A stretch of DNA of 64,000 bases, taken from Escherichia coli (GTDB lineage: Bacteria; Pseudomonadota; Gammaproteobacteria; Enterobacterales; Enterobacteriaceae). The position numbers and the translations under genes are program-made. Where the stretch lies: the NCBI RefSeq assembly GCF_036507355.1, contig NZ_AP027877.1. One strand, written 5' to 3'. Below the pieces are notes generated by a model. That model was given only the letters and a program-made list of their open reading frames with translations, was not told where the DNA came from and did not search any database. Numbering within the stretch: the stretch's first letter is position 1; every line of letters begins with the position of its first letter. This document shows, in pieces, positions 1-20,140 of this stretch.

Positions 1-2411
1 TTATCTTTCAGCATCAGCCCCCATTGGCACTGAGTCAGCGCCCGGAGAAATAGTCTGACTAAAATATCATCACTACGTTTGCTTCCGACTTTTAGTTTCA
101 TATCAGAAAACACCGTCCGGCAATAGAGAAAATCACACCAGTCATCCCAGTCAGCCAGGGTCTTCAGTGTATGCGTTTGCCGCCAGTCGTCGAAAAGGGA
201 GCGTTGCTGCAGAGCCTCTTCCATATTATCCCACGGGCGGGAAAACATCAGTAGATGCCCTTCATTCATGGCGGGCCGTACGGGCTGGCGTTTGAAATCG
301 AATTCCAGATTAAGACGGATATCCTGTTCCCGGGATACCAGATCGCTTTCCGAGAGCCACATCTCACGCGTTGATATCAACGTACTTCGGGATAACGTCT
401 GACCGGGTAAACGATTAAGGTAAAGATCTACCATATAGTCGTTATAGTCACTGCGTGGAATATCGGCAGGAGGTTTGACGCCAGCCCTGGCATGAACAAC
501 AGGTTTTCCCTGAATCGCTTTATAGGTTAACTGCCCCCGGGTTTTCATGGCGATAAGCTGGCTGACCTCATGCTTACATGTCAACATTGATGAACCCGGA
601 TCAACAATATCGCACAGCGACTGGAAGCGGGAAGACAGTGGACCGCTCATGTTTATCTTGTCAAGTGGGCAATTTGTCAAAAAACCATCGGTTGTGACGC
701 TGACAACCGATGAATCAGAAGGCAAAGCATTCATGAGTTCCCCGACAACGGCGCGGATAAATCCCGTCACATGCGCAGCAAAGAATGGCTGAGTAACCGA
801 TGATGGTGGGAGGGATCTGTTTAATCCACGGGCAGTATCAAAGGCGGTTTTGGCGCGAAGGCCCTGAGCAAGTTTGCCATAAAGCGAGTTGCCAATTTCT
901 TTCCAGAATTTCTCCTCCAAAGAACCCTTAATATGGCGATTACGGTTCTCACGGACCTGTTGAACAAAGGGAAGAAACACCGATGTTGATTCGCTGTTAT
1001 GTGGGGAGGTGTCACAGATCCAGGGGACGATGATCCCATTATGGATCGTCATCTCTGCCCCGAGCGACAGAGCAAGTTCGATTTCAGGTGCCGTTGCCCA
1101 TGATTCGCCACTTAATGGAAAGAATAACCCATATTGATCGGTCCGAACCGGCAGGCTGGGATAGGGAACTGATTCCGGGAACCGAAATGTGACAAGCGCA
1201 AATCCCATCACATGCCCACAGTAATCGTCCGGATTTTTACTGAGGCGGATGTTTCCGTAATCGGGTATGAGGATATCTAATAGCCCGGTGGTATACGCTC
1301 CAGCCAGATCGTAGTCATACCAGTGATCAGACGGTGTAACCCCCATCATAAAACACTCATTGCGTCCGCCGTGGTAACAGTTGATCGGGAACGTTTCAAA
1401 CAACTCTCTTGAAGGAACACTGGCGGGGTTTTTAATCGTCCGGAATGCCTGTTTCTCCGTGAGCCAGAGTTCACGGGTTTTAATGTGTGTCCCAAGGCAG
1501 ACTTCAGGAGACATATTGTTTTCTTTAAGTGTTTTGGTGAACCGTGAAACTGCCATCGCCCCGATGGTGGCGGGGACACGATCAATCATCAGCTCCCGGG
1601 CGCAAAAATTGCGAACCTGTAAAGCATAACGAACCGCAATCTCGGCATCCCGCAGAGCATAGGCTTCAAACCCTGCTCTGTCGCCCAGAAGATATTCACG
1701 CATATTGGTTATGGAATAAGGTGCAGGAATGGTGAGTTTGGGAAGACCCAGTAATTCACCACATTCAGCCAGACCCATACCCCCGGGAGTGATAAGCAGT
1801 GTATCGATGAAAGCTACGTTACTGCAACGCGGAGGGGAAGTTCGTTTGTCAAACATTATCTGTTCAGTCTTTACGCGACGTTCCTGCTGTTCATCAAAAT
1901 CGATACCGTAACGATTTTTGAAGCTGCTGACAGTACCGCGTATTCCTTTCAGAAGAATTTTGTAGTCTGACCAGAAATTGGCAAAGGAGGCGATATCCGC
2001 ACGAATGAAATGCGCATATATATTAATAATACCGGGCCATTTTGTAATCACACCCGTTTCAAGAAGCGGTGTAATCGTTTGACAGAGAAATTCCTTAAAA
2101 GACAGTCGGGATTTTTTCTGTGAGTCAGGTGGATAGATAATGTTCGATATACCAGTGTTATCGGGTAAGACGACATAACTCTGATATGACAGAATATCAT
2201 TCTGTTGTGTTTCAGGATTGAAAACATATTCGGTATCAAAACCGATATGGAGTGTCAGGTCACTTGAAATAACAGATACTTTTTTTGATGCAGGTGGTAT
2301 CACAGGATAATCATCAAGCGTTTTAGGTCTTTTAAGATTGAGCGCTGGCTCTGAAGTCACGGACTGATACCCCGAGGCGGCAGCGAGGATATCCTGCAAA
2401 TTATGGCTCAT
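1..2411 (-). CDS. Primer-independent family B DNA polymerase (piPolB), first ~803 codons; 3' end runs off the left edge
   Basis: Absent from the ORF track because no stop lies in the window. My translation of the minus strand from ATG 2411 (SD GGAG at 2418-2421) stays open to position 1. Motifs read directly: ExoI HIGFDTEYVF, ExoIII YALRDAEIA, Pol A YDYDLAGAYTTG, Pol B KEIGNSLYGKLAQG, Pol C VSVTTDGFL (TTDG codons 684-695), and AMKTRGQLTY (KTRG codons 534-545). KTRG is the piPolB-specific substitute for KxY. Confidence 0.85.
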   Translation of the reverse strand, partial: MSHNLQDILAAASGYQSVTSEPALNLKRPKTLDDYPVIPPASKKVSVISSDLTLHIGFDTEYVFNPETQQNDILSYQSYVVLPDNTGISNIIYPPDSQKKSRLSFKEFLCQTITPLLETGVITKWPGIINIYAHFIRADIASFANFWSDYKILLKGIRGTVSSFKNRYGIDFDEQQERRVKTEQIMFDKRTSPPRCSNVAFIDTLLITPGGMGLAECGELLGLPKLTIPAPYSITNMREYLLGDRAGFEAYALRDAEIAVRYALQVRNFCARELMIDRVPATIGAMAVSRFTKTLKENNMSPEVCLGTHIKTRELWLTEKQAFRTIKNPASVPSRELFETFPINCYHGGRNECFMMGVTPSDHWYDYDLAGAYTTGLLDILIPDYGNIRLSKNPDDYCGHVMGFALVTFRFPESVPYPSLPVRTDQYGLFFPLSGESWATAPEIELALSLGAEMTIHNGIIVPWICDTSPHNSESTSVFLPFVQQVRENRNRHIKGSLEEKFWKEIGNSLYGKLAQGLRAKTAFDTARGLNRSLPPSSVTQPFFAAHVTGFIRAVVGELMNALPSDSSVVSVTTDGFLTNCPLDKINMSGPLSSRFQSLCDIVDPGSSMLTCKHEVSQLIAMKTRGQLTYKAIQGKPVVHARAGVKPPADIPRSDYNDYMVDLYLNRLPGQTLSRSTLISTREMWLSESDLVSREQDIRLNLEFDFKRQPVRPAMNEGHLLMFSRPWDNMEEALQQRSLFDDWRQTHTLKTLADWDDWCDFLYCRTVFSDMKLKVGSKRSDDILVRLFLRALTQCQWGLMLKD

Positions 2412-2422
2412 AGTTAACTCCG

Positions 2423-2450: not shown

Positions 2451-2457
2451 TAAAGAA

Positions 2458-3096
2458 TCAAGATTTAATAACATTTACTACAGATTTGAAAATATCGGTT
2501 TTGCGTGATTCATCATCTACATGGATAAAGGAAACGAGTTTCCTGCCTGCTTTAATCAGGATACCGCGTTGCGTCTTTTCCACAGACGGGGTAACGTGTG
2601 CAGATAACAGACAATGTTCATGTAAATGAAGAAACTTTTTTGAGGCGTAGCCGCCATGTAATCGGGCTTGAATGTCAAGATACATATCATCAAGAGAACC
2701 GGGTTCTCCTGATTCACTCAATACCGGATAACCCTTCTTATCAAAGAGGTTAAGGATAGATTTACTATCATGTTCGAACAGGGTAACACCGTAAATGTAT
2801 TTCATTCGAAAGGTGAGGGAATCGGTGGTGTAGACCTCCTCCTGACGATTGAAATTTTTGAGACGCCTGGCTAATTCATTAAAAACAGCACGAGCAGTAG
2901 CCGTGTCCTGCAGGGTGTAGGTATAAAGTACGAAGCCATCTGTGCCGATGAGCTTTACTAAGTTGTCCATAATCGTGATAGCGAGAACTAATGCAAAGGA
3001 TAGATATTTTTCATCGTTGTCTACAGCTGTGTTTGCTGCTTCAGGAAGAATGTTCAGTGCATTATTAGCATTATTTGCTGTGTTCTTAGTAACCAT
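2458..3096 (-). CDS. Hypothetical protein (212 aa), recombination/replication module of the element
   Basis: Intact ORF co-oriented with int, xis and piPolB. Its start overlaps the xis stop by 11 nt. It has an Asn/Ala-rich N-terminus and no motif I can assign. Confidence 0.6.
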   Translation of the reverse strand: MVTKNTANNANNALNILPEAANTAVDNDEKYLSFALVLAITIMDNLVKLIGTDGFVLYTYTLQDTATARAVFNELARRLKNFNRQEEVYTTDSLTFRMKYIYGVTLFEHDSKSILNLFDKKGYPVLSESGEPGSLDDMYLDIQARLHGGYASKKFLHLHEHCLLSAHVTPSVEKTQRGILIKAGRKLVSFIHVDDESRKTDIFKSVVNVIKS

Positions 3097-3286
3097 TTAT
3101 ATCACCTTTAAGTTTGTTTTGACGATGTGCATTTTCCCACTCAACAATATCATCAAGAGAGAATCGTATAGCCCGCCCAATTCTGATGAAGGGCGGGAGT
3201 TTTCCGGGGTTGCGCGATATATCTGACGCAACCGTGGATGCAGAAAGATTAAATCTTTCTGCGAACTGCTTAATGGTTAAATACAT
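3086..3286 (-). CDS. AlpA/MerR-like helix-turn-helix excisionase / transcriptional regulator (66 aa)
   Basis: The small protein MYLTIKQFAERFNLSASTV...IRIGRAIRFSLDDIVEWE has the typical AlpA-family pattern. It lies immediately downstream of the integrase on the same strand. Confidence 0.75.
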   Translation of the reverse strand: MYLTIKQFAERFNLSASTVASDISRNPGKLPPFIRIGRAIRFSLDDIVEWENAHRQNKLKGDINGY

Positions 3287-3436: not shown

Positions 3437-4564
3437 TCATTTTGTGTCATAACTTTCTATGACCTGAGAAACCACTGCGTGTGATGTCGCTGCATTGTGA
3501 AAAGCGTAGCGACGGGTCGCCGTGAGTGAATGGTGATTTAGCAGATGGGAAGCGATTGCAATATCCCCGGTCGCCTGTAGTACCCGGGTGGCAAAGGTAC
3601 GGCGCAGGTCATGCATCCGCAGGTTATCAATGTTGGCATCCCGACAAATACGGGCAAAGGTTGCACGCGGATATGCCAGAGGGCGGGCATTGTCGGTTAG
3701 TTGTGGAAAAATGTAAGTTTTGCTGAGCATCAGGTCCTGCTGGCACTGGACAACTGCAATGGCTGGAAGTGCAAGTGGGCAGGTGAAAGGGTGTCCGGAC
3801 TTTGTATCAGGCAGTATGAGTTGATGCATATCCGGGTGCCAGTACTCCCATTTCAGGGTACATACCTCACCAATACGCATCCCCGTATAAAGAGCAAGCA
3901 ATATAGAATCAGCTGCCGGTGTTTGCAGCGCTGTTGCTGCGTTAATAAAGCGCGGGATTTCTGTCGCTGACAGTGTGCGATAGCGAATGTTATTTTCTTT
4001 CAGATAGCGGACATGTGACATCGGGGAATGTGTGATCCATCCAGCACGTACTGCCAGAGAGCATATTTTGGACAATATTGCGAGGATACGGTTTACTGTT
4101 GACGGACGTAATTTTTCCCGTAAGCCAGCAGCATATTGTTCTAGTTCTCCTGCCGTGATGTCGCGAAGTTGCCGCTTGCCCCAGAACGGGCGAACGTAGA
4201 GGTTGAGTTTTGACAACTCTGACTGAGGACTCTTTTTATACAACTGCAAATCCGGTAGCCACAGGTCATTGATGGCCTGTTCCACAGTGAATCGACGGGA
4301 CTGAACAGCAAGGCGATTTTTATCGGCAAGCAGGTTCATCACATGCTGACGGGCATCCTCAATGCAGAGATGAGGGAATTCACCCAGTGTTTCATATATA
4401 CGTTGATTTTTGATGGTGGCGCGAAAGGCCAGCGTGATCCGTTTTGGATATACCAGTGCACGCAGGTTTTGGCACTGAATATCACGGTATTCCTGACAAC
4501 CCGTGAGGGGATGTGGAAGTTGGTGAATTGATTTGTTGCTGAAACGCAGATCCAGAATAGGCAT
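3437..4564 (-). CDS. Tyrosine site-specific recombinase (phage-type integrase), 375 aa
   Basis: Catalytic signature read in the translation: R in YTGMRIGE, HDLRRTF (H-x-x-R), LLNHHS (H), TRRYAF (Y nucleophile). SD GGAG lies upstream of the ATG. Confidence 0.9.
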   Translation of the reverse strand: MPILDLRFSNKSIHQLPHPLTGCQEYRDIQCQNLRALVYPKRITLAFRATIKNQRIYETLGEFPHLCIEDARQHVMNLLADKNRLAVQSRRFTVEQAINDLWLPDLQLYKKSPQSELSKLNLYVRPFWGKRQLRDITAGELEQYAAGLREKLRPSTVNRILAILSKICSLAVRAGWITHSPMSHVRYLKENNIRYRTLSATEIPRFINAATALQTPAADSILLALYTGMRIGEVCTLKWEYWHPDMHQLILPDTKSGHPFTCPLALPAIAVVQCQQDLMLSKTYIFPQLTDNARPLAYPRATFARICRDANIDNLRMHDLRRTFATRVLQATGDIAIASHLLNHHSLTATRRYAFHNAATSHAVVSQVIESYDTK

Positions 4565-4706
4565 CGTATTTCTCCTGTAAATGACACTGGAAAAATACGA
4601 TGTGAGGTTATAGTCTGCCAGTTACAGCTTTCACAGTTCATCAGGTGAAAAATGCTGATTCGGATATAATGGCAACACAATTCCATGTCGCCATTATATT
4701 AAGAAA

Positions 4707-5837
4707 CTACAGTTTCATGATCTTGTTCGCTATTTTTTCGAAGTAAACCTCATTCTTAAGAAGAGTGATATTGTTAGTTTGAACACCCAGACCACTGGAG
4801 GTTGACTGGAAGTTGAGTGAACCACTTATCACGGTGGACTTTCCTGATAAAAATGAAATCAACTCCTTGGAAGATGGTGCCCACTCAGGGTTTAAGAGTA
4901 ATGCAATGTAGATATATGTCTTACGAAGCAATTGTTCGATATCTTTTTTATACCCCGTAGTGTTTTGCTTACCTTTAATGCAAATTGATTTGATTATGAA
5001 CTCATCAGGGCTGGTTAAAGGCGTTTTAAACTTATTCAGTGATCCATCGTTATGAATGACTTCATAAGGCAGCATAGATAAAATGATCAATGCAATCATT
5101 TTAGGATGATAAAGGTAGTTATCACGAATGATTTTTCCTGCCTTCATTGTATTGAGTGTTGTTTGAATAAATACAAAAAGATATTCAGAGCAAAAGTAAC
5201 AAAACACAAGCCAGGATAGGTCAATGGCTGGAATGTTAATATCCTTAGGTAGTTTGTTTAGCCAGTATTCAGACTTCAAAAAGGTCCTGATTTCAACAGT
5301 ATATTCATGCATTTTTGCGCTGAAATCAAGCATTGCTACTTGACCTGATTGTTCCGTAACTGTGTGGTCTATAAATGTTAGTGTATTGCACATTTTATCC
5401 AGCGTGTTTTGAAAACAAGAAAGGAGTTCGGCATTATTATTACCATTAACCGCAGATGAAAGTTCAGTTGCAATAAATGCATCCAGTAGCATACAGATTT
5501 TTTTCGGAATGACATTTTTACGGGATTGCTGTGAATAGAAATATACTGCCAGTAAATTAAAGGCAGTGCACTCCTTTTTTAACCATTGTTCGAGCACTGG
5601 GACGTGCTGAAAAAAATTGATATGCTTAGCAGTAGATGCTGATGGAGATAGTACATGAAGAATATCTACAGCAGGCTTCATTTGCAATATTTGATCGGAT
5701 TCGGTAGTCGTCATTAGTTCCAGTAATTGCTGTTCAGAAAATAGTTTAGACAGGTGATCAATGTCTTTTTGGTATTGGTTAAGTTTTTTTAAATTCCCCG
5801 GTACACGGGTTACATTGTTTTTCATTTTCTCGAACAT
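4707..5837 (-). CDS. Hypothetical protein (376 aa), AT-rich orphan with hydrophobic segments
   Basis: Long intact ORF with a good SD (GAGGA, 7 nt before the ATG). No recognisable catalytic motif. Hydrophobic stretches include IDLSWLVFCYFCSEYLFVFIQTTL and MIALIILSMLPYEVI. Confidence 0.6.
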   Translation of the reverse strand: MFEKMKNNVTRVPGNLKKLNQYQKDIDHLSKLFSEQQLLELMTTTESDQILQMKPAVDILHVLSPSASTAKHINFFQHVPVLEQWLKKECTAFNLLAVYFYSQQSRKNVIPKKICMLLDAFIATELSSAVNGNNNAELLSCFQNTLDKMCNTLTFIDHTVTEQSGQVAMLDFSAKMHEYTVEIRTFLKSEYWLNKLPKDINIPAIDLSWLVFCYFCSEYLFVFIQTTLNTMKAGKIIRDNYLYHPKMIALIILSMLPYEVIHNDGSLNKFKTPLTSPDEFIIKSICIKGKQNTTGYKKDIEQLLRKTYIYIALLLNPEWAPSSKELISFLSGKSTVISGSLNFQSTSSGLGVQTNNITLLKNEVYFEKIANKIMKL

Positions 5838-6239
5838 AATTTTATCCTCGTTTGAATTAATACACTGATTTAAAAAGTAGCATGTCGTGTTAGCGAGGTA
5901 ATCCTAAAACGTGAATGGGATCAGGGGCAAGCTTGAATCTGCGTAAGGATATGGCTTAAATTTAATGGTGTAATTAGTGGATTAGAGGCTTATAGCTATT
6001 TAAATACAATAAGTTATGACGGTGTGTGGCGGGTGTAAATCGGTTAGTTTTTATGGTTAAAATATGAGCGCTATGAGGTTTCAGAGATGGTGGTGTTTAA
6101 ATTACATAAAACCAAGGCCTGATAATCAGTATCAATACCGGAACGATGTCATATGATTAACACTGTCTATGGCATTGATAATGATCTATGCAAGGCTGAA
6201 ATTAGCTCTGCTTCACGATGATATAGTGTTCTATAAAGA

Positions 6240-7475
6240 TTAAAAGGAAATAAACAGAGCCTTTCGCCGATGAATCAATGTGCTGATTTCCCTCAAATCA
6301 GCCTCAATACTACCAACATCACCAAAGACTTCACCTCTAATCTCACTTCGATTTTTCATGAAATTGGTGCTTAATAAGCTTTCTTTTTTTAATGCCATTA
6401 ATTTTGGTTTTATATCGTTATAGAAATGCTTACGGCTTACCCTGATGCTATGAATCGAGTAGTAAACTGTTTTATACATCAAAAATATAAGTAACTGGCC
6501 GAGAAGATATTCTTTTTCAATGTATTTATATTGAGAGGATTTTTCGCGTTTCGCCAGGTAGAAAACATGAGGTGCGATGATGGTGGGGATAAAATCCAGT
6601 GCTGGAGAGGTTTTGGTTTTTTCTGTTTCTCTTCCGGATTGAAGATGTTGAAGTACAGAGTATACAATGCTTAAAATTATGGCGTTACTTATATTATTAA
6701 TTGCAGTTGGGTAAATATGCAGATTGCTTATCAATTCTGAAAGGCAAAGTAAAACACCAGTGATGTTGGGTTTTCTGCCGGAGATTGTGGTGCTGTTGAA
6801 AATGTGACGATTCTTACGACTTATATTGACAAGTTTATGAGTGCAGAACTCTATATGTTCGACGATTTTATCTTGACTATTTTTAATGTATTTTGAAATG
6901 TTAGTGATCCGGCCATTCAACGTTAGTTCATCAAGCAATATATCATTTTTAATATTGCGAATTTCATCGCAATGTTCACATTGAGAAACTATCTCATGTA
7001 ATACATAACTCGAAGTATTGCGTGACGATGCTGATATGTAATCTAAAATGGAATGCTCGACTTTGATTTTTTGTTTGTATTTTTTAATGCACTGTTTGAT
7101 TGTTTTTTGTAGAGTATTTGAGATGTGTTTTTTATATTCTTTTAGAAAATCTTGCTCTAAAAAGAGTGAGGAGAAGATCAACTGCTGGCGAGATAATTTA
7201 ATCTCAGGCTTGATCAATTTAATCCGAAAAACTCTTCCCTCCAACTCATAGCTGAACATGGAAGATAAGTCATAGTGGGGTGATAAATGTTCGAGTAACG
7301 ACATTCGTGTATTCATTAGCCGCTTGAATTTATGGTCAGCATACATAAGTGTTTTTTTTATTTGCTCATCATAAAGTGGGCCGATAGCGCAGTTGGCAAT
7401 ACTCATTCTATCCGGAGACCTCCAGTCAGCAGGGGAATCACATTGACGGTCATCATTACTATCAAAGGGCATCAA
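6240..7475 (-). CDS. Hypothetical protein (411 aa), AT-rich orphan with Lys-rich helical N-half and hydrophobic C-half
   Basis: Long intact ORF transcribed divergently from hsdM. Segments GVLLCLSELISNL, AIILSIVYSVL, FIPTIIAPHVFYL and LLGQLLIFLMY look membrane-associated. Start is 7475 or 7472 (tandem ATG), with a weak SD. Confidence 0.55.
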   Translation of the reverse strand: MMPFDSNDDRQCDSPADWRSPDRMSIANCAIGPLYDEQIKKTLMYADHKFKRLMNTRMSLLEHLSPHYDLSSMFSYELEGRVFRIKLIKPEIKLSRQQLIFSSLFLEQDFLKEYKKHISNTLQKTIKQCIKKYKQKIKVEHSILDYISASSRNTSSYVLHEIVSQCEHCDEIRNIKNDILLDELTLNGRITNISKYIKNSQDKIVEHIEFCTHKLVNISRKNRHIFNSTTISGRKPNITGVLLCLSELISNLHIYPTAINNISNAIILSIVYSVLQHLQSGRETEKTKTSPALDFIPTIIAPHVFYLAKREKSSQYKYIEKEYLLGQLLIFLMYKTVYYSIHSIRVSRKHFYNDIKPKLMALKKESLLSTNFMKNRSEIRGEVFGDVGSIEADLREISTLIHRRKALFISF

Positions 7476-7778
7476 CGTTGCCGATTATGGATGATGTCAG
7501 CTTCACACACCAGTACGGGTGATATATGGATCATCATTACCCCAACGGCAGTTTTACACCATGGCTAATATGGATGCTATCTTACTAAGATAATTGGTTT
7601 TTAGCGAGTGACGAGCCAGGTTGTGTCAGTCTGTCTCATGTCGATATTACGGGGATGATGCAAACCTGAATGCTGCGATATTGGCGTGTCAGGGGAGGCA
7701 TCTTACGGTATCATTTACCGCAATTTTTAAGATGCAAAGCCCTGCATCGCTAGCTTTTTCTTCAGACCAGGATGATTC

Positions 7779-9302
7779 ATGAACGACAAAATCAGTCAGG
7801 ACACGATCAACAAAGCCCTGTGGGCCGCGTGTGATACGTTCCGTGGCACCATCAGTGCTGATACCTATAAAGACTTTATCCTTACCATGCTGTTCCTCAA
7901 GTACATTTCAGATGTCTGGCAGGATCACTACGACGAATATAAAGTGCAATATGGCGATGCGCCGGAACTGATTGAAGCGATGATGGCGAACGAGCGCTTC
8001 GTGTTGCCGAAAAGCGCCAGTTTCTATGCGTTGTACGAGCGACGTCATGAGCCGGGCAACGGTGAGCGTATCGATCAGGCGCTGCATGCGATTGAAGAAG
8101 CCAACGGCACCAAACTGAAAGATGCCGGGAAAAGTGTCTTCCAGGATATTTCGTTTAACACTGACCGTCTGGGCGAAGAAAAACAGAAGAACACCATCCT
8201 GCGTCAGTTGCTGGAAGACTTTGCCGGTGAAGATCTTAACCTGAAGCCAAGCCGTGTCGGTACGCTGGACGTTATCGGTAATGCTTACGAATATCTGATC
8301 AAAAACTTTGCTGCCAGCGGTGGGCAGAAAGCCGGGGAATTCTATACCCCGCCGGAAGTTTCGGACCTGATTGCTGAACTGCTCGATCCGCAACCGGGTG
8401 ATACCATCTGCGATCCGGCCTGTGGTTCGGGTTCATTGTTGATGAAGTGTGGGCGTAAAATTGTCTCCGGGCATGATAGTCGTAACTATGCATTGTTCGG
8501 TCAGGAAGCGATCGGTTCTACGTGGTCGCTGGCGAAAATGAATATGTTCCTGCACGGGGAAGACAACCATAAAATCGAGTGGGGCGATACCATTCGTAAC
8601 CCGAAGCTGCTCGATAAAAATGGCGACCTGATGCTGTTTGATATCGTGACCGCTAACCCACCGTTCAGCCTCGATAAGTGGGGCCATGACGAGGCCGAGA
8701 ACGATAAGTTTGGCCGTTTTCGTCGCGGTGTACCGCCGAAGACTAAAGGAGATTACGCTTTTATCTCGCATATGATCGAAACCCTGAAACCGGGAACTGG
8801 CCGTATGGGCGTAGTTGTGCCACACGGTGTGCTTTTCCGTGGCTCCAGCGAAGGTAAAATTCGCCAGAAACTGATCGACGAAAATTTGCTGGATGCGGTA
8901 ATTGGTCTGCCGGAAAAACTGTTCTACGGTACGGGGATTCCGGCTGCGATTCTGATTTTTAAAAAGCAGAAAGTTGATGACAAGGTGCTGTTTATCGATG
9001 CCAGCCGTGAATTCAAGGCAGGTAAAAACCAGAACCAGCTTAGCGAAGAAAACATTAAGAAAATCGTCAAGACCTACCGTGATGGCGATAACGTCGAGAA
9101 ATACGCCTATCTTGCCAGCCTGAAGGAAATTCAGGACAACGACTATAATCTCAATATCCCGCGCTATGTCGATACCTTTGAAGAAGAGGATGAGATTGAC
9201 CTGCTGGCGGTGCGAGCAGAACGCGAGCAACTGAAGGCGGAATTGGCGAAGCTGGAAACGGAGATGGCTGGATATTTGAAGGAGTTGGGTTATGGCTCGT
9301 GA
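7779..9302 (+). CDS. hsdM: Type I restriction-modification system, DNA methyltransferase subunit HsdM
   Basis: N6-adenine methylase motifs: DPACGSGSLL (AdoMet binding) and VTANPPFS (NPPF catalytic). The HsdM N-terminal domain pattern (LWAACDTFRG) is present. hsdS overlaps the 3' end by 11 nt. Confidence 0.95.
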   Translation: MNDKISQDTINKALWAACDTFRGTISADTYKDFILTMLFLKYISDVWQDHYDEYKVQYGDAPELIEAMMANERFVLPKSASFYALYERRHEPGNGERIDQALHAIEEANGTKLKDAGKSVFQDISFNTDRLGEEKQKNTILRQLLEDFAGEDLNLKPSRVGTLDVIGNAYEYLIKNFAASGGQKAGEFYTPPEVSDLIAELLDPQPGDTICDPACGSGSLLMKCGRKIVSGHDSRNYALFGQEAIGSTWSLAKMNMFLHGEDNHKIEWGDTIRNPKLLDKNGDLMLFDIVTANPPFSLDKWGHDEAENDKFGRFRRGVPPKTKGDYAFISHMIETLKPGTGRMGVVVPHGVLFRGSSEGKIRQKLIDENLLDAVIGLPEKLFYGTGIPAAILIFKKQKVDDKVLFIDASREFKAGKNQNQLSEENIKKIVKTYRDGDNVEKYAYLASLKEIQDNDYNLNIPRYVDTFEEEDEIDLLAVRAEREQLKAELAKLETEMAGYLKELGYGS

Positions 9303-10566
9303 TTCGCTTTACCCAGTGAGCGTTAAAGCTGGAAAACCGATCCTTGGAATGCTACCTACAGGATGGCAAAAGTTATCATTAGAAAAGTGCTTAAATATAG
9401 AGGCAAGAAAGGCATATATACAAGATAATCAAGAGTATGACTTAGTTACAGTAAAGCGCTCCAGAGGTGGCGTAATAAGACGTGAGCATCTTAAAGGAAA
9501 AGATATCTCCGTAAAAAGTCAATTCTATATTAAAGAAGGCGACTTTCTCATATCAAAACGACAAATTGTGCACGGTGCTTGCGGTCTTGTACCTAAAGAA
9601 CTTTCTGGCTCAATTGTATCGAATGAATATTGTGTGCTTACAGGGAAGTCCGGTTTTTATCTTCCTTATATGGAATTTCTATCGGAGTCTCTATATTTCC
9701 AGCAAACCTGCTTCCACTCTAGCATTGGTGTGCACATAGAGAAAATGATTTTTAAGTTAGATAGTTGGTTTAAGTGGCCATTTAATATCCCCCCACTGTC
9801 TGAACAAAAGAGAATCGTTAAAATCCTGTCAACCTGGGATAAGGCGATTTCGGTGACGGAAAAGCTTCTCACCAACAGTCAGCAGCAGAAAAAAGCCCTG
9901 ATGCAGCAATTGCTTACCGGGAAAAAACGCTTGCTGGATGAGAGGGGGGTGAGGTTTAGTGGGGAGTGGAAGAGAGTAAAACTGGGTGCGATAGCCGATA
10001 TGAACAGTGGAGGTACTCCGAAATCAACGGTTGAAGAGTATTATGGCGGGAATATCCCATGGGTATCTATTTCTGATATGACATCTAATGGAAAGTGGAT
10101 TGCTACAACTGAAAAATATCTGACTGAATTAGGATTGAACAGTTCATCCGCAAGAATATATCCAAAAAACTCGGTTCTTTATGCTATGTATGCTTCTATA
10201 GGTGAATGCAGCATTGCTGCTGTAAATTTAACATCTTCGCAGGCAATCTTGGGTATTAGACCAAAAGATTGTTTAAATTATGAGTTTTTATATTTCTATC
10301 TTACATCATTAAAAGAAAAAATAAAACTGCAAGGCCAGCAAGGTACACAGTCCAACCTAAACGCCGGAATGGTTAAAGAGTTTGAACTAGACTTACCCAG
10401 TATAAGAGAACAACAAAAAATCGCCGCCGTCCTGTCCGTCGCCGATGCCGAAATCTCCACGCTGGAGAAAAAACTCGCCTGCCTGAGAGATGAGAAAAAA
10501 GCCCTGATGCAACAGCTACTGACTGGCAAACGTCGTGTTAAGGTCGATGAGGCGGTTGCCGAATGA
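9292..10566 (+). CDS. hsdS: Type I R-M specificity subunit HsdS (two target-recognition domains)
   Basis: Two AT-rich variable halves are separated and followed by conserved helical repeats: QQKKALMQQLLTGKKRL and DEKKALMQQLLTGKRRV. Position is between hsdM and hsdR. Confidence 0.9.
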   Translation: MARDSLYPVSVKAGKPILGMLPTGWQKLSLEKCLNIEARKAYIQDNQEYDLVTVKRSRGGVIRREHLKGKDISVKSQFYIKEGDFLISKRQIVHGACGLVPKELSGSIVSNEYCVLTGKSGFYLPYMEFLSESLYFQQTCFHSSIGVHIEKMIFKLDSWFKWPFNIPPLSEQKRIVKILSTWDKAISVTEKLLTNSQQQKKALMQQLLTGKKRLLDERGVRFSGEWKRVKLGAIADMNSGGTPKSTVEEYYGGNIPWVSISDMTSNGKWIATTEKYLTELGLNSSSARIYPKNSVLYAMYASIGECSIAAVNLTSSQAILGIRPKDCLNYEFLYFYLTSLKEKIKLQGQQGTQSNLNAGMVKEFELDLPSIREQQKIAAVLSVADAEISTLEKKLACLRDEKKALMQQLLTGKRRVKVDEAVAE

Positions 10567-11246
10567 AACTGACGAAAAGCGGTCCACTGACTGACCGGGA
10601 AATCGACTGGCTGGAAGAAATATTAATGAAGTATGGAATGGATGATTCTGTACTCTGTTTCTCTGAGCTGGATGGATTGCTGACGGCGATTTTATCAGGT
10701 CCAAATATGGTTTCACCCAATATCTGGCTGAGTGCTATTTGGGGAGGAGGCGATTATCATCCGAAATGGTCATCTGAGAGAGAGATGGAGCGTTTTGTCA
10801 GTCTGTGTTTTCAGCATATGAACGATATCGCTGGTTGCCTTTATGACGCCCCTGAACTGTTTGAGCCGATTTTCAATGAGCGTGAGGTAAAGGGGGAAAA
10901 ATATACCATTGTGGAAGAGTGGTGTTTTGGTTATATGAAAGGAAAGTCACTGGATGACTGGTCTGGTCTTCCCGGTGAGTTACGGCCTTCTCTGGAAGTG
11001 ATCGCTCTTCATGGCGTGGAGAAGAATTTTCCTGTACTTGAGAAAATGACCAGAGAGCAGTTTGAGAAAAGTATTTCCCTTATTAAGCCTGCTGCACTGG
11101 CACTTTATCAGTACTGGTTGTCAGTGAGAATGTCAGAGGCATCATCCCGGCCTGTTCCAGTGAAGGGGGCAGAAAACATGCCCGGGCGAAATGACCCGTG
11201 TCCGTGTGGCAGCGGTAAAAAATTTAAGAAGTGCTGTCTGCATTGA
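10563..11246 (+). CDS. YecA-like (UPF0149) protein with C-terminal SEC-C metal-binding motif, embedded in the type I R-M operon
   Basis: Collinear with chromosomal YecA (20141-20806) along its whole length, with roughly half the residues identical by eye. The C-terminus [20 protein letters not shown] is a SEC-C zinc/iron-binding motif. Its ATG overlaps the hsdS stop (ATGA). Confidence 0.85.
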   Translation: MKLTKSGPLTDREIDWLEEILMKYGMDDSVLCFSELDGLLTAILSGPNMVSPNIWLSAIWGGGDYHPKWSSEREMERFVSLCFQHMNDIAGCLYDAPELFEPIFNEREVKGEKYTIVEEWCFGYMKGKSLDDWSGLPGELRPSLEVIALHGVEKNFPVLEKMTREQFEKSISLIKPAALALYQYWLSVRMSEASSRPVPVKGAENMPGRNDPCPCGSGKKFKKCCLH

Positions 11247-11295
11247 TGAATCTTCATGTGACCAGTAGCGAGTAGCGCCAGAAAGAAAAGGATTA

Positions 11296-14200
11296 ATGAT
11301 GAACCAGACGTACACGCCTAAATTCCAGGAAGAATACAGCGCCAAAATTCCGGCACTGACGTTACTGACCAGCCTCGGCTGGACGTTTTTATCTCCGAAA
11401 CAGATTATGGATTACCGGGGCTATAAACAGGATGAGGTGGTGCTGCGTCCGGTTCTGCGTGAAGAGCTGTCGAAGCGTTCCTTTATGGCGGGTGGCAAAA
11501 CCTGCCAGTTATCGGAAAAAGCACTGGATAACCTGATATCACAGGTCTGTTCTCCGGCGCTGAATGAAGGGCTGCTCAAAGCCAATGAACGGATGTATAA
11601 CCATCTGCTCTACGGTATCGCCGTCACGGAGTTTGTCGATGGCAAGAAGGTGAACCCCACCATTGCGCTGATCGACTGGGAACATCCGGAAAGTAACCAG
11701 TTCCATTTTACCGAAGAATTTACGGTATTGCGGTCAGGCGGTGTCGAAACCCGCAGGCCGGATATTGTGTGTTTTGTGAATGGTATCCCGCTGGCCGTCA
11801 TTGAAGCGAAAAGCCCGGCGGGTCACGGCAAGAAAGGGCCAACCATTGACGAAGGGATATCCCAGAGTATCCGCAATCAGCTCAACGACGAAATCCCGCA
11901 GCTGTTTGCTTACAGCCAGATATTACTGTCGATTAACGGGCATGACGGGCGCTACGGTACCTGTCATACACCAATGAAATTCTGGGCGGCATGGCGCGAA
12001 GAAGATATTACTTACGCGCAGATGTATGCGCTGCGCAACCATAAGTTATCGACTGAACAAATTCATGCGTTGTTTGATGATCGTCCTTCAGTCGATCTCA
12101 AATGGTATCAACAGTTAATCGATGGGGGGGAACTGGCAGTCAGCGGGCAGGATAAGCTGCTCATCAGTCTGCTTTCACCGGAACGTCTGCTGGAGATGAC
12201 CCGCTTCTTCACCCTGTTTGATAAAAAAACCGGAAAAATTGTTGCCCGCTATCAGCAGGTGTTCGGTATTAAAAGACTGCTGGAACGCATCAGTACCCGC
12301 AGACCAGACGGGGGCAGGGAAGGTGGGGTGATCTGGCATACCACGGGGTCAGGTAAATCTTACACCATGGTATTCCTCAGCAAGGCGCTGATTCTTCATG
12401 ACAGCCTGAAGCAGTGTCGTATTGTGGTGGTGACGGACCGCGTGGACCTTGAAGGGCAGCTCAGCGGCACTTTTGTCTCTGGTGGCGAACTGGCAGGGAA
12501 GGATGATAAGGCCAAAGCGATGGCAACCTCAGGTCAGAAGCTGGCACAGCAGATTGGCTCTGGTAAAGAACGTATAATCTTTACCCTTATCCAGAAATTT
12601 AACTCAGCGACAAAATTGCCTGAATGCGTCAACACCAGCCCCGACATCATCGTTCTGATTGATGAAGGACACCGTAGCCAGGGTGGTGAGAACCATGTGC
12701 GAATGAAACTGGCACTGCCGAACGCCGCCTTTGTGGCATTTACTGGTACGCCATTGCTAAAAGAAGATAAGACCACCAATAAATTCGGGCCGATTGTCCA
12801 CGCTTATACCATGCAGCGAGCGGTAGAAGATAAAGCCGTTACACCTTTGCTGTATGAAGAACGTATTCCCGACCTTGAGGTTAACGATCGGGCAATAGAT
12901 GCCTGGTTTGATCGTATTACCGATGGGTTAAGCGAAGCGCAAAAAGCCGACCTTAAGCGTAAATATGCCCGTAAAGGTGAGGTTTATAGTGCAGATGATC
13001 GCATCCGTCTGATCGCACTCGATATCGCCACGCACTTCTCGAAGAATATTGATGAGGGGCTGAAAGGCCAGCTTGCCTGCGACAGCAAGATTTCCGCCAT
13101 CAAATATAAAAAGTATCTTGATGAAGCCGGGTTGTTTGAGTCAGCAGTAGTTATCAGCCCGCCGGATACCCGGGAAGGGAATACCGAAGTGGATGAAAGC
13201 AAACTGCCGGAAGTGACGAAATGGTGGAAGGATAATGTCGGCACGCAGGATGAGTCTGTGTATACCCGTAATATCATCAGTCGTTTCGATACCGATGAGA
13301 AGCTCAAATTGCTGATAGTCGTTGATAAACTGCTCACCGGGTTTGATGAGCCGAAGAATACCGTGCTGTATATCGACAAGCCGCTTAAGTCCCACAACCT
13401 TATCCAGGCGATTGCGCGGGTGAACCGACTGCATCCACTAAAAAAGTTCGGTCTGCTGATTGATTATCGCGGTATTCTGGCTGAGCTGGACACGACTATC
13501 GGCAAATATCAGGACCTCGCCTCCCGAACTCAGGGCGGATACGATATCAAAGATATTGACGGGCTGTACAGCGCCATGAGCTCTGAATACAAGCGCCTGC
13601 CGCATCTGTATAACCAGCTGTGGGCCATATTTGCCGGTGTTAAAAACAAAAATGATACTGAGCAGTTACGTGCGGTACTGGTGCCTAAAATGGAAGAACG
13701 TGACGGAGAGATGGTCGATATCCATCAGAAAACCCGTGATGATTTCTTCGAGGCGTTAACGGCCTTTGCCGGATGCCTGAAAGTGGCACTGCAGTCCGCT
13801 ACCTTCTTCACCGACAAGAGCTTTACGGAACAAGACCGAAATCTCTATAAAGAAACCGTAAAACAGATGTCCAGCCTGCGCCAGTGGGCGATGCAGGTAA
13901 GTGGAGAGCAGGTCAATTATGACGACTACGCTGAGCAGGTGAAAAAACTGCTGGATAAGCATGTCACCGGCGTTGAGGTTCGTGAACCGGATGGCGTGTA
14001 TGAAGTCGGTAAAATGGGCAAGAGCGAAAAGCCCGAAGAGTGGGACAACAATAAAACCCGCAATGAAACCGACATCATTAAAACCCGCGTGACGAAGATG
14101 ATTGAGCAGGAATTGCGTGATGACCCGTATGCTCAGGAGGCATTTTCAAAACTCCTGCGTATGGCTATCGAAGAGGCTGAAAAACTGTTTGACCATCCGC

Positions 14201-14583
14201 TGAAACAGTACCTTTTGTTCCGTGAATTTGAAGAACAGGTTGAAGCCCGTAAGCTCAGCGATATCCCGGATGCACTGGCGGTAAACAAGCATGCTCAGGC
14301 GTATTACGGTGTATTTAAAAAAGAGCTACCTGAGGTTTTTGCGGTAAACGACGTTCAGGTGCAGGATAAGTGGACCAAGCTGGCTTTTGAAGTGGACAAC
14401 ATTATCGTCAAAGCGGTGGCAGAAAACTCCCTGAACCCCCAGGACATTGAGAAAGTCGTTAAGACAAGTCTGCTACCACTGCTGTTTACGGCCTGCCGGG
14501 AAATTGGTGCCGGAATGAATCAGGTTAACCGTATTGTGGAAACCATCATCCAGATACTGCGCGTTGGTTTGATGAAATCATGA
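11296..14583 (+). CDS. hsdR: Type I R-M restriction/translocase subunit HsdR (1095 aa)
   Basis: N-terminal PD-(D/E)xK nuclease motif (RPDIVCFVNGIPLAVIEAKSP). SF2 helicase motif I is TTGSGKSYT and motif II is VLIDEGHRSQ. Operon context with hsdM/hsdS. Confidence 0.95.
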   Translation: MMNQTYTPKFQEEYSAKIPALTLLTSLGWTFLSPKQIMDYRGYKQDEVVLRPVLREELSKRSFMAGGKTCQLSEKALDNLISQVCSPALNEGLLKANERMYNHLLYGIAVTEFVDGKKVNPTIALIDWEHPESNQFHFTEEFTVLRSGGVETRRPDIVCFVNGIPLAVIEAKSPAGHGKKGPTIDEGISQSIRNQLNDEIPQLFAYSQILLSINGHDGRYGTCHTPMKFWAAWREEDITYAQMYALRNHKLSTEQIHALFDDRPSVDLKWYQQLIDGGELAVSGQDKLLISLLSPERLLEMTRFFTLFDKKTGKIVARYQQVFGIKRLLERISTRRPDGGREGGVIWHTTGSGKSYTMVFLSKALILHDSLKQCRIVVVTDRVDLEGQLSGTFVSGGELAGKDDKAKAMATSGQKLAQQIGSGKERIIFTLIQKFNSATKLPECVNTSPDIIVLIDEGHRSQGGENHVRMKLALPNAAFVAFTGTPLLKEDKTTNKFGPIVHAYTMQRAVEDKAVTPLLYEERIPDLEVNDRAIDAWFDRITDGLSEAQKADLKRKYARKGEVYSADDRIRLIALDIATHFSKNIDEGLKGQLACDSKISAIKYKKYLDEAGLFESAVVISPPDTREGNTEVDESKLPEVTKWWKDNVGTQDESVYTRNIISRFDTDEKLKLLIVVDKLLTGFDEPKNTVLYIDKPLKSHNLIQAIARVNRLHPLKKFGLLIDYRGILAELDTTIGKYQDLASRTQGGYDIKDIDGLYSAMSSEYKRLPHLYNQLWAIFAGVKNKNDTEQLRAVLVPKMEERDGEMVDIHQKTRDDFFEALTAFAGCLKVALQSATFFTDKSFTEQDRNLYKETVKQMSSLRQWAMQVSGEQVNYDDYAEQVKKLLDKHVTGVEVREPDGVYEVGKMGKSEKPEEWDNNKTRNETDIIKTRVTKMIEQELRDDPYAQEAFSKLLRMAIEEAEKLFDHPLKQYLLFREFEEQVEARKLSDIPDALAVNKHAQAYYGVFKKELPEVFAVNDVQVQDKWTKLAFEVDNIIVKAVAENSLNPQDIEKVVKTSLLPLLFTACREIGAGMNQVNRIVETIIQILRVGLMKS

Positions 14584-19889: not shown

Positions 19890-19945
19890 ATTTAAAATCC
19901 CTCGGCGTTCGCGCTGTGCGGGTTCAAGTCCCGCTCCGGGTACCA
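19890..19945 (+). repeat. attR-type direct repeat: 3' 56 nt of tRNA-Leu(UAA) leuZ (anticodon loop to CCA), not a functional tRNA
   Basis: ATTTAAAATCCCTCGGCGTTCGCGCTGTGCGGGTTCAAGTCCCGCTCCGGGTACCA matches the 3' part of K-12 leuZ as I recall it. The sequence 5' of 19890 does not match the acceptor or D arm. Confidence 0.8.
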
Positions 19946-19988
19946 TGGGAAAGATAAGAATAAAATCAAAGCAATAAGCAGTGTCGTG

Positions 19989-20012
19989 AAACCACCTTCG
20001 GGTGGTTTTTTT
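19989..20012 (+). terminator. Rho-independent terminator of the glyW-cysT-leuZ tRNA operon
   Basis: AAACCACC-TTCG-GGTGGTTT hairpin followed by a T-run. Confidence 0.8.
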
Positions 20013-20140
20013 GTGCCTGCAACTTGTCGTTACACCCTCCTTAATTTTTAATCACCGGCAAAGCCACTCAAAAAGTATCTCTGATACGGACCGGCATGTA
20101 AGATAGGTGTTGGCGAGTTGAGATCCACAAGGAAAAGCGT

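What the first reader, a model, noticed from the sequence alone, without database searches (positions are those of the whole stretch)
4707..7475. Two tandem AT-rich orphan genes (376 and 411 aa) between integrase and R-M: candidate undescribed defence or abortive-infection genes
Seen: two long intact minus-strand ORFs in the most AT-rich DNA of the island, separated by a ~400-bp ORF-free gap. The second is transcribed divergently from hsdM across a 303-bp shared intergenic region. Neither has any catalytic or family motif I recognise. Both contain hydrophobic helix-like segments, for example LSWLVFCYFCSEYLFVFI in the first and GVLLCLSELISNL, FIPTIIAPHVFYL and LLGQLLIFLMY in the second. By eye the two proteins share collinear short patches: LHVLSPSAS / LEHLSPHYD; VLEQWLKKE / FLEQDFLKEYKK; ALIILS / AIILS; KTPLTSPDEFI / KTKTSPALDFI; YKKDIEQLL / YKYIEKEYLL. 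This suggests they are very divergent paralogues. Inference: the position inside a defence-cargo module, horizontal-transfer composition, predicted membrane association and lack of annotation make these the best candidates here for a genuinely new system.
Basis: partly seen in the sequence, partly recalled or inferred. Interest (0 to 1): 0.75.

Follow-up and report, generated by a model that had tools for sequence, protein, structure and literature searches.

The report
Hypervariable orphan genes at pipolin junction
Two real but unannotated protein genes sit at the seam between the conserved core and the swappable defence cargo of a known E. coli mobile element (a pipolin); one occurs in every such element examined, in very different versions, which hints at a role in genetic conflict, but its function is unknown and the idea of a membrane-bound paralogue pair does not hold.

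Summary
Both ORFs are real. They are intact, far longer than chance allows, under purifying selection (dN/dS about 0.15) and lie in the most AT-rich DNA of the island.

The island is a known element, an E. coli pipolin: piPolB with the KH-X8-KTRG motif, inserted at tRNA-Leu/yecA and bounded by 133-bp att repeats.

The proteins are not detectable paralogues (hhalign probability 0.2%; Smith-Waterman z = 0.2). No segment reaches a transmembrane hydropathy threshold.

Neither protein matches Pfam, NCBIfam, PADLOC, PHROGs, PDB or BFVD.

ORF-A (376 aa) is a pipolin-only family. In all 40 loci whose contig reaches that far, it lies directly upstream of IntP2-AlpA-orf212-piPolB. It exists as at least 7 allele classes sharing at most 47% identity. 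These are swapped as a cassette between backbones that are 93-100% identical, including within E. coli.

ORF-B occurs only with one ORF-A lineage and lies inside the same replaceable cassette (window 4654-7518). It diverges with the backbone, not with the cargo.

Best reading, by inference: an allele-specific conflict or recognition protein fixed at the core/cargo junction. A role in the pipolin life cycle is nearly as likely.

The parts
4707..5837 (-). ORF-A: 376 aa, 43 kDa, pI 8.7, all-alpha, soluble. A pipolin-specific orphan family, type-1 allele here.
6240..7406 (-). ORF-B: 388 aa from the probable ATG at 7406 (the longest ORF runs to TTG 7475, 411 aa). 45 kDa, pI 9.5. An orphan family found only with type-1/1b ORF-A.
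   Evidence: dN/dS 0.14. The AlphaFold model is unusable (pLDDT 39). It lies directly upstream of ORF-A in more than 25 loci.
4654..7518 (.). Replaceable cassette: ORF-B, the gap, ORF-A and 54 bp of 3' flank. In other E. coli and Citrobacter pipolins it is replaced by a 1.25-kb segment holding a single ORF-A allele with 43% identity.
   Evidence: DNA breakpoints between the window and L025. The same arrangement occurs in 18 complete E. coli genomes. The L007/L021 breakpoints lie 23 bp upstream of the hsdM ATG and 68 bp after the ORF-A stop.
5838..6239 (.). ORF-free 402-bp spacer between ORF-B and ORF-A (GC 0.36). Its length varies: about 509 bp in many metagenome copies.
7407..7778 (.). Divergent intergenic region between ORF-B and hsdM. 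The hsdM-proximal ~260 bp is kept across cassette types.
4664..4699 (-). 14-bp inverted repeat (hairpin, -21.6 kcal/mol) starting 8 nt after the ORF-A stop. Probably the terminator of the ORF-A transcription unit.
   Evidence: The Edwardsiella allele has a hairpin followed by a T-run at the same place.
4629..4642 (-). GATGAACTGTGAAA motif marking the start of the conserved backbone, upstream of IntP2.
   Evidence: The 11-mer ATGAACTGTGA sits at this position in all 37 loci where it was found. One exact 14-mer copy occurs in L001.
3437..4564 (-). IntP2-type tyrosine recombinase (375 aa), the fixed downstream neighbour of ORF-A.
   Evidence: Pfam Phage_integrase 1.6e-21. Synteny.
3086..3286 (-). 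AlpA/HTH_17 excisionase-like gene.
2458..3096 (-). 212-aa orphan of the core block.
1..2411 (-). piPolB, N-terminal 803 codons; the rest runs off the window.
   Evidence: L001 annotation. Invariant D368, K613, H614, K623-T-R-G626 match the KH-X8-KTRG motif.
7779..15335 (+). Cargo: hsdM, hsdS, a YecA-like SEC-C protein, hsdR and an M48/YgjP-like peptidase.
19890..20022 (+). Distal att-like direct repeat. It is 96% identical to the 3' part of tRNA-Leu plus flank and marks the end of the pipolin.

Best explanation
SHOWN.
- The two ORFs are genuine protein genes inside an E. coli pipolin. A pipolin is an integrative element that encodes piPolB; this one sits at tRNA-Leu/yecA. The ORFs lie exactly where the conserved IntP2-AlpA-orf212-piPolB block meets the exchangeable defence cargo.
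- ORF-A belongs to a family found only in pipolins and always directly upstream of IntP2.
- It has its own Shine-Dalgarno sequence and, in several alleles, its own terminator-like hairpin.
- It exists as at least 7 old allele classes sharing at most 47% identity. These classes are exchanged as a cassette between backbones that are 93-100% identical.
- Its N-terminal (1-40) and C-terminal (291-330) parts are conserved. The central helices (about 121-190) are hypervariable.
- ORF-B is an unrelated, basic orphan. It occurs only with the type-1/1b ORF-A lineage and lies inside the same replaceable cassette. A relative with 45% identity fills the same slot upstream of an integrase in a pipolin-like island that lacks piPolB.

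INFERRED.
- ORF-A is a soluble recognition protein at a conflict interface.
- The variable centre would recognise a variable foreign partner, such as a protein of a phage or a rival mobile element.
- The conserved ends would provide a common output or assembly function. This would give the pipolin allele-specific immunity or exclusion, in the manner of a single-gene defence or abortive-infection protein.
- ORF-B would be a lineage-specific accessory of that function.
- The biochemical activity is unknown.
For: - Real genes: ORF length against shuffles. dN/dS is 0.15 and 0.14 against Edwardsiella and 0.24-0.26 within type 1.
- Pipolin identity.
- Fixed position: every locus that holds ORF-A and reaches far enough shows ORF-A followed by IntP2, and then AlpA, orf212 and piPolB as far as the contig runs.
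- Decoupled identity, given as ORF-A / IntP2 / piPolB: 44/93/100 (L007 vs L021), 37/100/100 (L019 vs L025), 37/97/99 (window vs L025).
- Sharp DNA breakpoints at the ends of the cassette.
- Polymorphism within E. coli: 233 genomes carry type 1 and 18 carry the P0014-type allele, which shares 43% identity, on the same backbone.
- Seven allele classes.
- Conserved ends and variable centre.
- Synonymous divergence is 3 times higher than in the adjacent IntP2 and is patchy along the gene (0.02-0.53). This fits old alleles reshuffled by recombination.
- The cassette stays at 33-39% GC in hosts with different genome GC, while IntP2 and piPolB stay at 47-51%.
- Its non-core neighbours are R-M or other defence-associated genes in most contexts: type I R-M, a UvrD/methylase/ResIII set, dynamin-like GTPases.
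Against: - No match to any PADLOC or PHROG model.
- The family never occurs intact outside pipolins: none in 50,697 phages, and among 72,556 plasmids only an IS1-cut 97-aa remnant in two Klebsiella plasmids. Proven defence genes are usually spread across many kinds of elements (my own knowledge).
- Strict linkage to IntP2/piPolB fits a life-cycle role equally well.
- Gene-wide pairwise dN/dS stays below 1, so positive selection is not demonstrated.
- All occurrences share one evolutionary context, so adjacency to defence genes is not independent evidence.
- The ORF-A model is only moderate (pLDDT 64.7) and the ORF-B model is unusable, so fold-based negatives are weak.
Confidence: 0.4

Rival explanations
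1. ORF-A is a pipolin life-cycle factor. It would act as an immunity-region-like regulator or sensor that controls IntP2/AlpA/piPolB expression, or the neighbouring cargo promoter. The closest analogies are the Stl repressors of SaPIs and phage immunity modules. Its alleles would swap together with their own cis sites.
For: - Complete linkage to, and the same orientation as, IntP2-AlpA-orf212-piPolB, with restriction to pipolins.
- The swapped segment includes ORF-A's own upstream and downstream non-coding DNA. In pipolins without ORF-B it reaches to 23 bp from the hsdM start codon, so it carries a promoter region with it.
- Deep allelic divergence next to an integrase is typical of immunity regions and Stl genes (my own knowledge).
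- In one genome, Intestinirhabdus alba, two co-resident pipolins carry different ORF-A alleles.
Against: - No HTH or other DNA-binding domain appears in Pfam or in the fold searches.
- Backbones that are 100% identical tolerate ORF-A alleles sharing 37% identity. An allele-specific protein-protein partnership with IntP2, AlpA or piPolB is therefore unlikely.
- The conserved IntP2 upstream motif and hairpin lie outside the cassette.
- ORF-A appears to end in its own terminator-like hairpin.
Confidence: 0.3
2. ORF-A, with or without ORF-B, is an anti-defence or establishment factor that protects the pipolin when it enters a new host. Examples would be anti-restriction, or relief of the element's own R-M. 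It would diversify against host defences.
For: - Allelic diversity together with a conserved slot.
- R-M genes are nearly always present somewhere in the same element.
- It forms an independent transcription unit.
Against: - The proteins are basic (pI 8.7 and 9.5), unlike the acidic DNA-mimic anti-restriction proteins (my own knowledge).
- The pair persists in a Salmonella pipolin whose visible cargo side has no R-M (L054).
- No homology to known anti-defence families.
Confidence: 0.1
3. One reading: two very divergent paralogous, membrane-associated cargo genes that together form a new defence or abortive-infection system.
For: - The orphan pair sits next to R-M genes and is AT-rich.
- ORF-A type 1 and ORF-B always co-occur.
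- A weak AbiJ_NTD4 hit for ORF-B (E = 0.005).
Against: - Paralogy is not above chance.
- There is no transmembrane signal.
- Six of the seven ORF-A allele classes occur without ORF-B.
- A relative of ORF-B occurs without ORF-A (L006 and L050).
- The genes track the backbone, not the cargo.
- The AbiJ hit is 17.5 bits against a cutoff of 34 and appears in 1 of 6 family members.
Confidence: 0.05
4. The ORFs are functionless hitch-hikers or decaying remnants that are kept only because they lie next to the core.
For: - Truncated variants exist: P0006, P0007, P0012, P0013 and P0021-26; L026, L048; a frameshift in the L025 MAG.
- Low GC.
Against: - Reading frames of 376-382 codons stay intact in 33-39% GC DNA across seven allele classes and at least ten genera.
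- dN/dS is 0.14-0.26.
- Strongly conserved motifs, for example KTYIYIALL.
Confidence: 0.03

Closest known systems
Pipolins of Enterobacterales (piPolB elements at tRNA-Leu; PMC5695915, PMC7385651, PMC11551731)
   Same: The window carries one. It has piPolB with KH-X8-KTRG and att repeats at tRNA-Leu. Strain RM14721, which matches window 1-22000 at 99.1% identity, adds the IntSXT end with DUF2787 to the IntP2-excisionase core. The defence-rich cargo module is also present. The papers already note many orphan genes and a two-module layout.
   Different: In the text I could read, the papers do not name or analyse these two genes. The core genes they name are piPolB, IntSXT, IntP2, DUF2787, WYL and 'two orphan proteins'. 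ORF-A's strict position at the junction and its cassette-like allelic replacement are not described there.
Defence hotspots of P4-like satellites and P2-like prophages (my own knowledge; Rousset et al. 2022, not read here)
   Same: A fixed slot next to an integrase, flanked by conserved element genes, whose content varies between otherwise similar elements. The content is AT-rich.
   Different: Those hotspots hold unrelated defence systems that also occur elsewhere. Here a single homologous family fills the slot in every element, as deeply diverged alleles, and is found nowhere else.
SaPI Stl repressors and phage immunity regions (my own knowledge)
   Same: The gene lies directly upstream of int in the same orientation. 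Alleles differ greatly between otherwise similar elements and are exchanged together with their flanking non-coding DNA.
   Different: No detectable HTH. The protein is larger (376 aa). The conserved int regulatory motif lies outside the cassette. No divergent lytic or replication operon faces it.
AbiJ (Pfam AbiJ_NTD4, PF18863)
   Same: Only a weak local similarity in ORF-B residues 113-227 (E = 0.006).
   Different: Far below the gathering score (17.5 against 34 bits) and present in 1 of 6 family members. It is not a member.

Membership tests
Pipolin (the element that contains the finding) | Encodes a piPolB, a family-B polymerase with the KH-X8-KTRG motif in place of KxY | tested here: met
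   In the 866-aa protein, K613, H614, K623, T624, R625, G626 and D368 are invariant. The numbering is the same as in the characterised E. coli enzyme. Pfam DNA_pol_B_2 is only faint.
Pipolin (the element that contains the finding) | Integrated at tRNA-Leu and bounded by att-like direct repeats | tested here: met
   A 133-bp repeat at 96% identity: L001 8868-8998, overlapping tRNA-Leu, and L001 37149-37281. The distal copy in the window is at 19890-20022.
Pipolin (the element that contains the finding) | Gammaproteobacterial core: IntSXT, DUF2787, WYL, IntP2 plus excisionase | tested here: met
   IntSXT, DUF2787, IntP2 and AlpA are present in L001 and related loci. WYL is present in Serratia, Edwardsiella, Hafnia, Lelliottia and Salmonella loci. 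No WYL gene is annotated in L001, where an IS1 lies between DUF2787 and piPolB.
Known or candidate anti-phage defence families (PADLOC-DB 2.0) | Significant match to a defence-protein HMM | tested here: not met
   No family at E <= 1 for either protein.
AbiJ | AbiJ N-terminal domain at or above Pfam's gathering score, conserved across the family | tested here: not met
   17.5 bits against a cutoff of 34; 1 of 6 ORF-B members.
Integral membrane proteins | At least one uncharged hydrophobic segment of about 19 residues (Kyte-Doolittle >= 1.6), or a dedicated transmembrane prediction | tested here: not met
   Maxima are 1.51 and 1.43, and nearly all of the top segments contain charged residues. 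The ORF-A segment is a bundle helix in the model. DeepTMHMM was not available.
Paralogous pair (ORF-A and ORF-B as one family) | Sequence or profile similarity above chance | tested here: not met
   BLASTP E = 2. Smith-Waterman z = 0.23 and 0.47. hhalign probability 0.2%. No cross-hit in the exhaustive profile search. A structural comparison was not possible because the ORF-B model has pLDDT 39.
Repressors of the Stl or phage-immunity type | A DNA-binding (HTH) domain | tested here: not met
Repressors of the Stl or phage-immunity type | Adjacent to int, highly divergent alleles, swapped with flanking DNA | tested here: met
Toxin-antitoxin pair | Two small, tightly linked or overlapping genes that always occur together | tested here: not met
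   Proteins of 376 and 388 aa are separated by 402 bp. ORF-A mostly occurs without ORF-B.

The most novel reading that the evidence does not exclude
ORF-A founds a new pipolin-specific family of single-protein immune or exclusion sensors. It would be built into the element's backbone and kept as ancient alleles by frequency-dependent selection. Each allele would recognise a different phage or rival-element trigger through its hypervariable central helices. ORF-B would be an add-on module for one allele lineage. This would be a defence function that belongs to the core of a defence island rather than to its cargo.
Probability: 0.25. Interest if true: 0.7.

Novelty: new variant of a known kind. 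Interest (0 to 1): 0.4.

Why it matters
Pipolins were recently recognised as widespread defence islands. What their core genes do, apart from piPolB and the integrases, is unknown, and so is why the elements persist.

A gene that is present in every IntP2-type pipolin examined, yet replaced by deeply diverged alleles on near-identical backbones, is a concrete handle on pipolin biology. It could define immunity or exclusion groups, a built-in defence function, or a regulatory switch.

It also gives a precise molecular landmark for the core/cargo boundary where module exchange happens. That landmark is the motif ATGAACTGTGA, 54-68 bp downstream of the ORF-A stop.

The result is also a caution. 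Being next to defence genes here reflects one fixed architecture, not independent enrichment.

Tried and rejected
- The AbiJ_NTD4 hit for ORF-B is noise: sub-threshold and in 1 of 6 members.
- Other Pfam hits differ from member to member, so they are chance.
- The 'GKxNxTG' stretch of ORF-A is not a P-loop. G289 and K290 are not invariant once distant alleles are added.
- 'SGRxPNITG' in ORF-B against 'SGRNNLTG' in one ORF-A allele (P0034) lies in a different order relative to the other patches. This is my own reading of the sequences. It does not rescue the paralogy, which hhalign puts at probability 0.2%.
- The secondary-structure order looks loosely similar in the two models (helix, hairpin, long helix). 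The ORF-B model has pLDDT 39, so I give this no weight.
- Profile searches against PDB sequences found nothing.
- The conserved motif upstream of IntP2 is not a LexA box by my reading: the CTG...CAG spacing is 9 in some loci and the CAG is absent in others.
- Distant piPolB loci from IMG/VR (L029-L031) have a different layout. Their 380-aa ORF is unrelated to both ORF-A and IntP2.
- The 275-aa orphan upstream of ORF-A in L013 is unrelated to ORF-B.
- No paper mentions the RefSeq accessions of these proteins. No supplementary files of the NAR 2024 paper are held.
- No Rfam family and no significant repeat lies in 4400-7900. Promoter-like sites are not above shuffle expectation.
Full report
1. 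THE OBSERVATION

The window has two intact minus-strand ORFs at 4707-5837 (376 aa, ORF-A) and 6240-7475 (411 aa from a TTG, ORF-B).
- The longest stop-free run in this 35-36% GC stretch is 414 codons. In 500 shuffles the mean was 91 and the maximum 183.
- GC is 0.36 and 0.35, against about 0.50 for the integrase, hsdM and hsdR. The eight lowest-GC 1-kb windows of the island all start between 4751 and 6501.
- The 402-bp spacer holds no ORF above 35 aa and no Rfam match.
- ORF-A has a GAGGA Shine-Dalgarno sequence.
- ORF-B most likely starts at ATG 7406, giving 388 aa. The five more divergent homologues and one E. coli variant begin there, and only that codon has a GGAGG upstream.
- Both genes are under purifying selection: dN/dS is 0.15 and 0.14 against Edwardsiella tarda orthologues, compared with 0.10 for the integrase.

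So the descriptive part of the finding is correct.

Paralogy:
- BLASTP finds nothing (best E = 2).
- The Smith-Waterman score is inside the shuffle distribution. Local z = 0.23, with 363 of 1000 shuffles at least as high. Global z = 0.47. Even the hand-picked C-terminal stretch reaches only z = 1.3.
- Profile-profile comparison of the two families gives probability 0.2%.
- An exhaustive HMMER search with the ORF-A profile against 1.84 billion representatives found no ORF-B-like protein.

Membrane association:
- The best 19-residue hydropathy means are 1.51 and 1.43, and nearly all of the top segments carry charged residues.

3. WHAT THE ISLAND IS

The same DNA occurs in hundreds of E. coli chromosomes, between the tRNA-Gly/Cys/Leu cluster and yecA.
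- The gene running off the left end of the window encodes an 866-aa polymerase. Its invariant residues D368, K613, H614 and K623-T-R-G626 reproduce, with the same numbering, the KH-X8-KTRG signature of the characterised primer-independent PolB (PMC5695915).
- A 133-bp direct repeat overlaps the 3' part of tRNA-Leu and recurs at window 19890-20022.

The element is therefore a pipolin. These have been described as two-module defence islands, with a conserved core near the integration site and an exchangeable, defence-rich cargo (PMC7385651, PMC11551731). Those papers mention many orphan genes. In the text available to me they do not single out these two.

4. NO KNOWN FAMILY OR FOLD

- Pfam, NCBIfam, PADLOC and PHROGs give nothing significant.
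- Scanning every family member gives only inconsistent noise. The AbiJ_NTD4 hit is 17.5 bits against a cutoff of 34 and appears in 1 of 6 members.
- Profiles find nothing among PDB sequences.
- The ORF-B model is unusable (pLDDT 39).
- Both families are tiny: 18 and 13 clusters among 5.8 billion proteins. Every named source organism and genome record for them is from Enterobacterales.
- ORF-A has 6 full-length 50%-identity clusters among 1.84 billion representatives.

5. CONTEXT IS THE INFORMATIVE EVIDENCE

In every locus that holds an ORF-A relative and reaches IntP2 (40 of 40), ORF-A lies directly upstream of IntP2 in the same orientation. AlpA/HTH_17, a ~210-aa orphan and piPolB follow as far as each contig runs. 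The loci come from E. coli, Citrobacter, Franconibacter, Intestinirhabdus, Enterobacter, Buttiauxella, Serratia, Hafnia, Lelliottia, Edwardsiella, Salmonella and metagenomes.

The other side varies:
- type I R-M in most loci;
- a UvrD/PD-(D/E)XK, methylase and ResIII set in Serratia;
- dynamin-like GTPases in L015 and L016;
- unrelated genes in Salmonella L054 and in L013.

Neither protein is encoded in 50,697 phage records. In 72,556 plasmids there is only a 97-aa ORF-A stump, cut by IS1, beside an exported copy of the type I R-M in two Klebsiella plasmids.

Compared with Edwardsiella, ORF-A (68%) and ORF-B (59%) have diverged like IntP2 (69%) and piPolB (67%). The adjacent hsdM is 100% identical. 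The genes therefore travel with the backbone, not with the recently exchanged cargo.

6. ORF-A IS HYPERVARIABLE AND IS REPLACED AS A CASSETTE

There are at least seven allele classes sharing at most 47% identity. Identity of ORF-A is decoupled from its neighbours. Values are ORF-A / IntP2 / piPolB:
- 44/93/100 for L007 vs L021;
- 37/100/100 for L019 vs L025;
- 37/97/99 for the window vs L025.

DNA comparisons show sharp breakpoints.
- Between L007 and L021, similarity ends 23 bp upstream of the hsdM start codon and resumes 68 bp after the ORF-A stop.
- Between the window and L025, it ends at window 7519 and resumes at 4653.
- The whole ORF-B plus ORF-A segment (2.87 kb) is therefore allelic to a 1.25-kb segment holding one ORF-A of the P0014 type, which shares 43% identity with the window's ORF-A.

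Both states occur within E. coli. Of 5,426 complete genomes, 276-297 carry the backbone, 233 carry type-1 ORF-A, 248 carry ORF-B, and 18 carry the P0014-type allele without ORF-B.

Other properties:
- Across allele classes the N-terminal 40 and C-terminal 291-330 residues are conserved (mean pairwise identity 0.5-0.7). Residues 121-190 are at about 0.2.
- Within type 1, dN/dS is 0.24-0.26. Synonymous divergence is about three times that of the adjacent IntP2 (0.25 against 0.075) and is patchy along the gene (0.02-0.53). This indicates old, recombining alleles rather than simple fast drift.
- The cassette stays at 33-39% GC in all hosts.

7. ORF-B

It is found only with type-1/1b ORF-A, always between ORF-A and the cargo. 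This includes a Salmonella pipolin whose visible cargo has no R-M.

Its one distant relative (45% identity; L006 and L050) sits directly upstream of a different tyrosine recombinase and a DUF927 primase, in a pipolin-like island without piPolB that also carries IntSXT and DUF2787. ORF-B-type genes can therefore occupy the same slot as ORF-A.

It is basic (pI 9.5).

8. TRANSCRIPTION UNITS

A stable hairpin follows the ORF-A stop (window 4664-4699, -21.6 kcal/mol). The Edwardsiella allele has a hairpin followed by a T-run at the same place.

The conserved backbone begins at the motif GATGAACTGTGAAA (window 4629-4642). Its core 11-mer is found once upstream of IntP2 in 37 of 37 loci.

ORF-A is therefore probably transcribed separately from IntP2.

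9. INTERPRETATION

Shown:
- real, pipolin-restricted genes;
- a fixed position at the core/cargo junction;
- deep allelic polymorphism with cassette exchange;
- conserved ends with a variable centre;
- soluble and helical;
- no known domain.

Inferred: such a pattern is what one expects of a recognition protein at a conflict interface. I rate an allele-specific immunity or exclusion function as the most likely reading (about 0.4).

A life-cycle or regulatory role, in the manner of an immunity region, is nearly as likely (about 0.3). Complete linkage to IntP2/piPolB and absence from all other element types are unusual for defence genes. Two co-resident pipolins in Intestinirhabdus alba carry different alleles.

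10. NOVELTY AND SCORE

The element is known and the genes are unannotated orphans. What appears new is a single homologous family fixed at the junction but exchanged as ancient alleles. That is a variant of the 'hotspot next to an integrase' theme rather than a new category.

Interest is moderate (0.4). The case would rise to about 0.7 if an allele-specific defence or exclusion phenotype were shown.

Noticed in passing
window 4562-4602 (minus strand); same position in L002, L005, L007, L012, L016, L021, L023: The Shine-Dalgarno sequence and start codon of the IntP2 integrase are sequestered in a hairpin of -12 to -24 kcal/mol. It is kept in all eight loci examined. The sequence differs in the divergent loci (L012, L016) but a hairpin still forms. 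This suggests translational control of the integrase.
   Followed up: partly
window 4629-4642 and 3422-3432; L012 1329/2541, L015 11361/12576, L016 11362/12577: The 11-mer ATGAACTGTGA lies 60-75 nt upstream of the IntP2 start in 37 of 37 loci. A second exact copy lies just after the IntP2 stop, upstream of alpA, in L012, L015 and L016. In L016 it is part of a direct repeat of about 22 nt. The window has a degenerate copy, ATGATCTGTGA. It is possibly an operator or promoter element shared by int and alpA. By my reading it is not a LexA box.
   Followed up: partly
window 10563-11246 (+) and 20141-20806 (+): A YecA-like UPF0149/SEC-C gene is embedded between hsdS and hsdR of the pipolin's type I R-M. 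The same arrangement occurs in Edwardsiella and on a Klebsiella plasmid. The host gene flanking the pipolin's distal att site is yecA itself.
   Followed up: no
L027 (Klebsiella quasipneumoniae plasmid pKqu-1, NZ_CP097647.1) 1-9002: The pipolin-type type I R-M (hsdM-hsdS-YecA-like...hsdR) sits on an IncFIB plasmid together with a 97-aa 5' remnant of ORF-A cut by IS1. This is a footprint of cargo export from a pipolin to a plasmid.
   Followed up: partly
L006 and L050 (metagenome contigs): A pipolin-like island with IntSXT (47% identity) and DUF2787 (43-45%) but no piPolB. A DUF927 primase and a different integrase take the place of piPolB and IntP2, with an ORF-B relative directly upstream.
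   Followed up: partly
L017 and L021 (Intestinirhabdus alba BIT-B35, scaffolds 46 and 51): One genome carries two pipolin backbones (IntP2 78% and piPolB 72% identical to each other) with different ORF-A alleles (37% identity). The NAR 2024 paper reports finding no pipolin 'reinfection' in Enterobacterales.
   Followed up: no
window about 19705-19890 against L001 35310-36809: Strain RM14721 carries a SIR2-family gene between the Mrr-like endonuclease and the distal att repeat. The window lacks it, a difference of about 1.76 kb.
   Followed up: no
window 5838-6239 against L034-L049: The spacer between ORF-B and ORF-A is 402 bp in the window but about 509 bp in many metagenome and genome copies, so there is an indel of about 107 bp.
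   Followed up: no
E. coli complete genomes: The searches found slightly more matching places than genomes for ORF-A (254 places in 250 genomes) and ORF-B (281 in 269). In the search with the whole 4500-7800 region, strain GD33 (NZ_CP076646.1) has two places. I did not check whether these are second pipolins or fragments.
   Followed up: no
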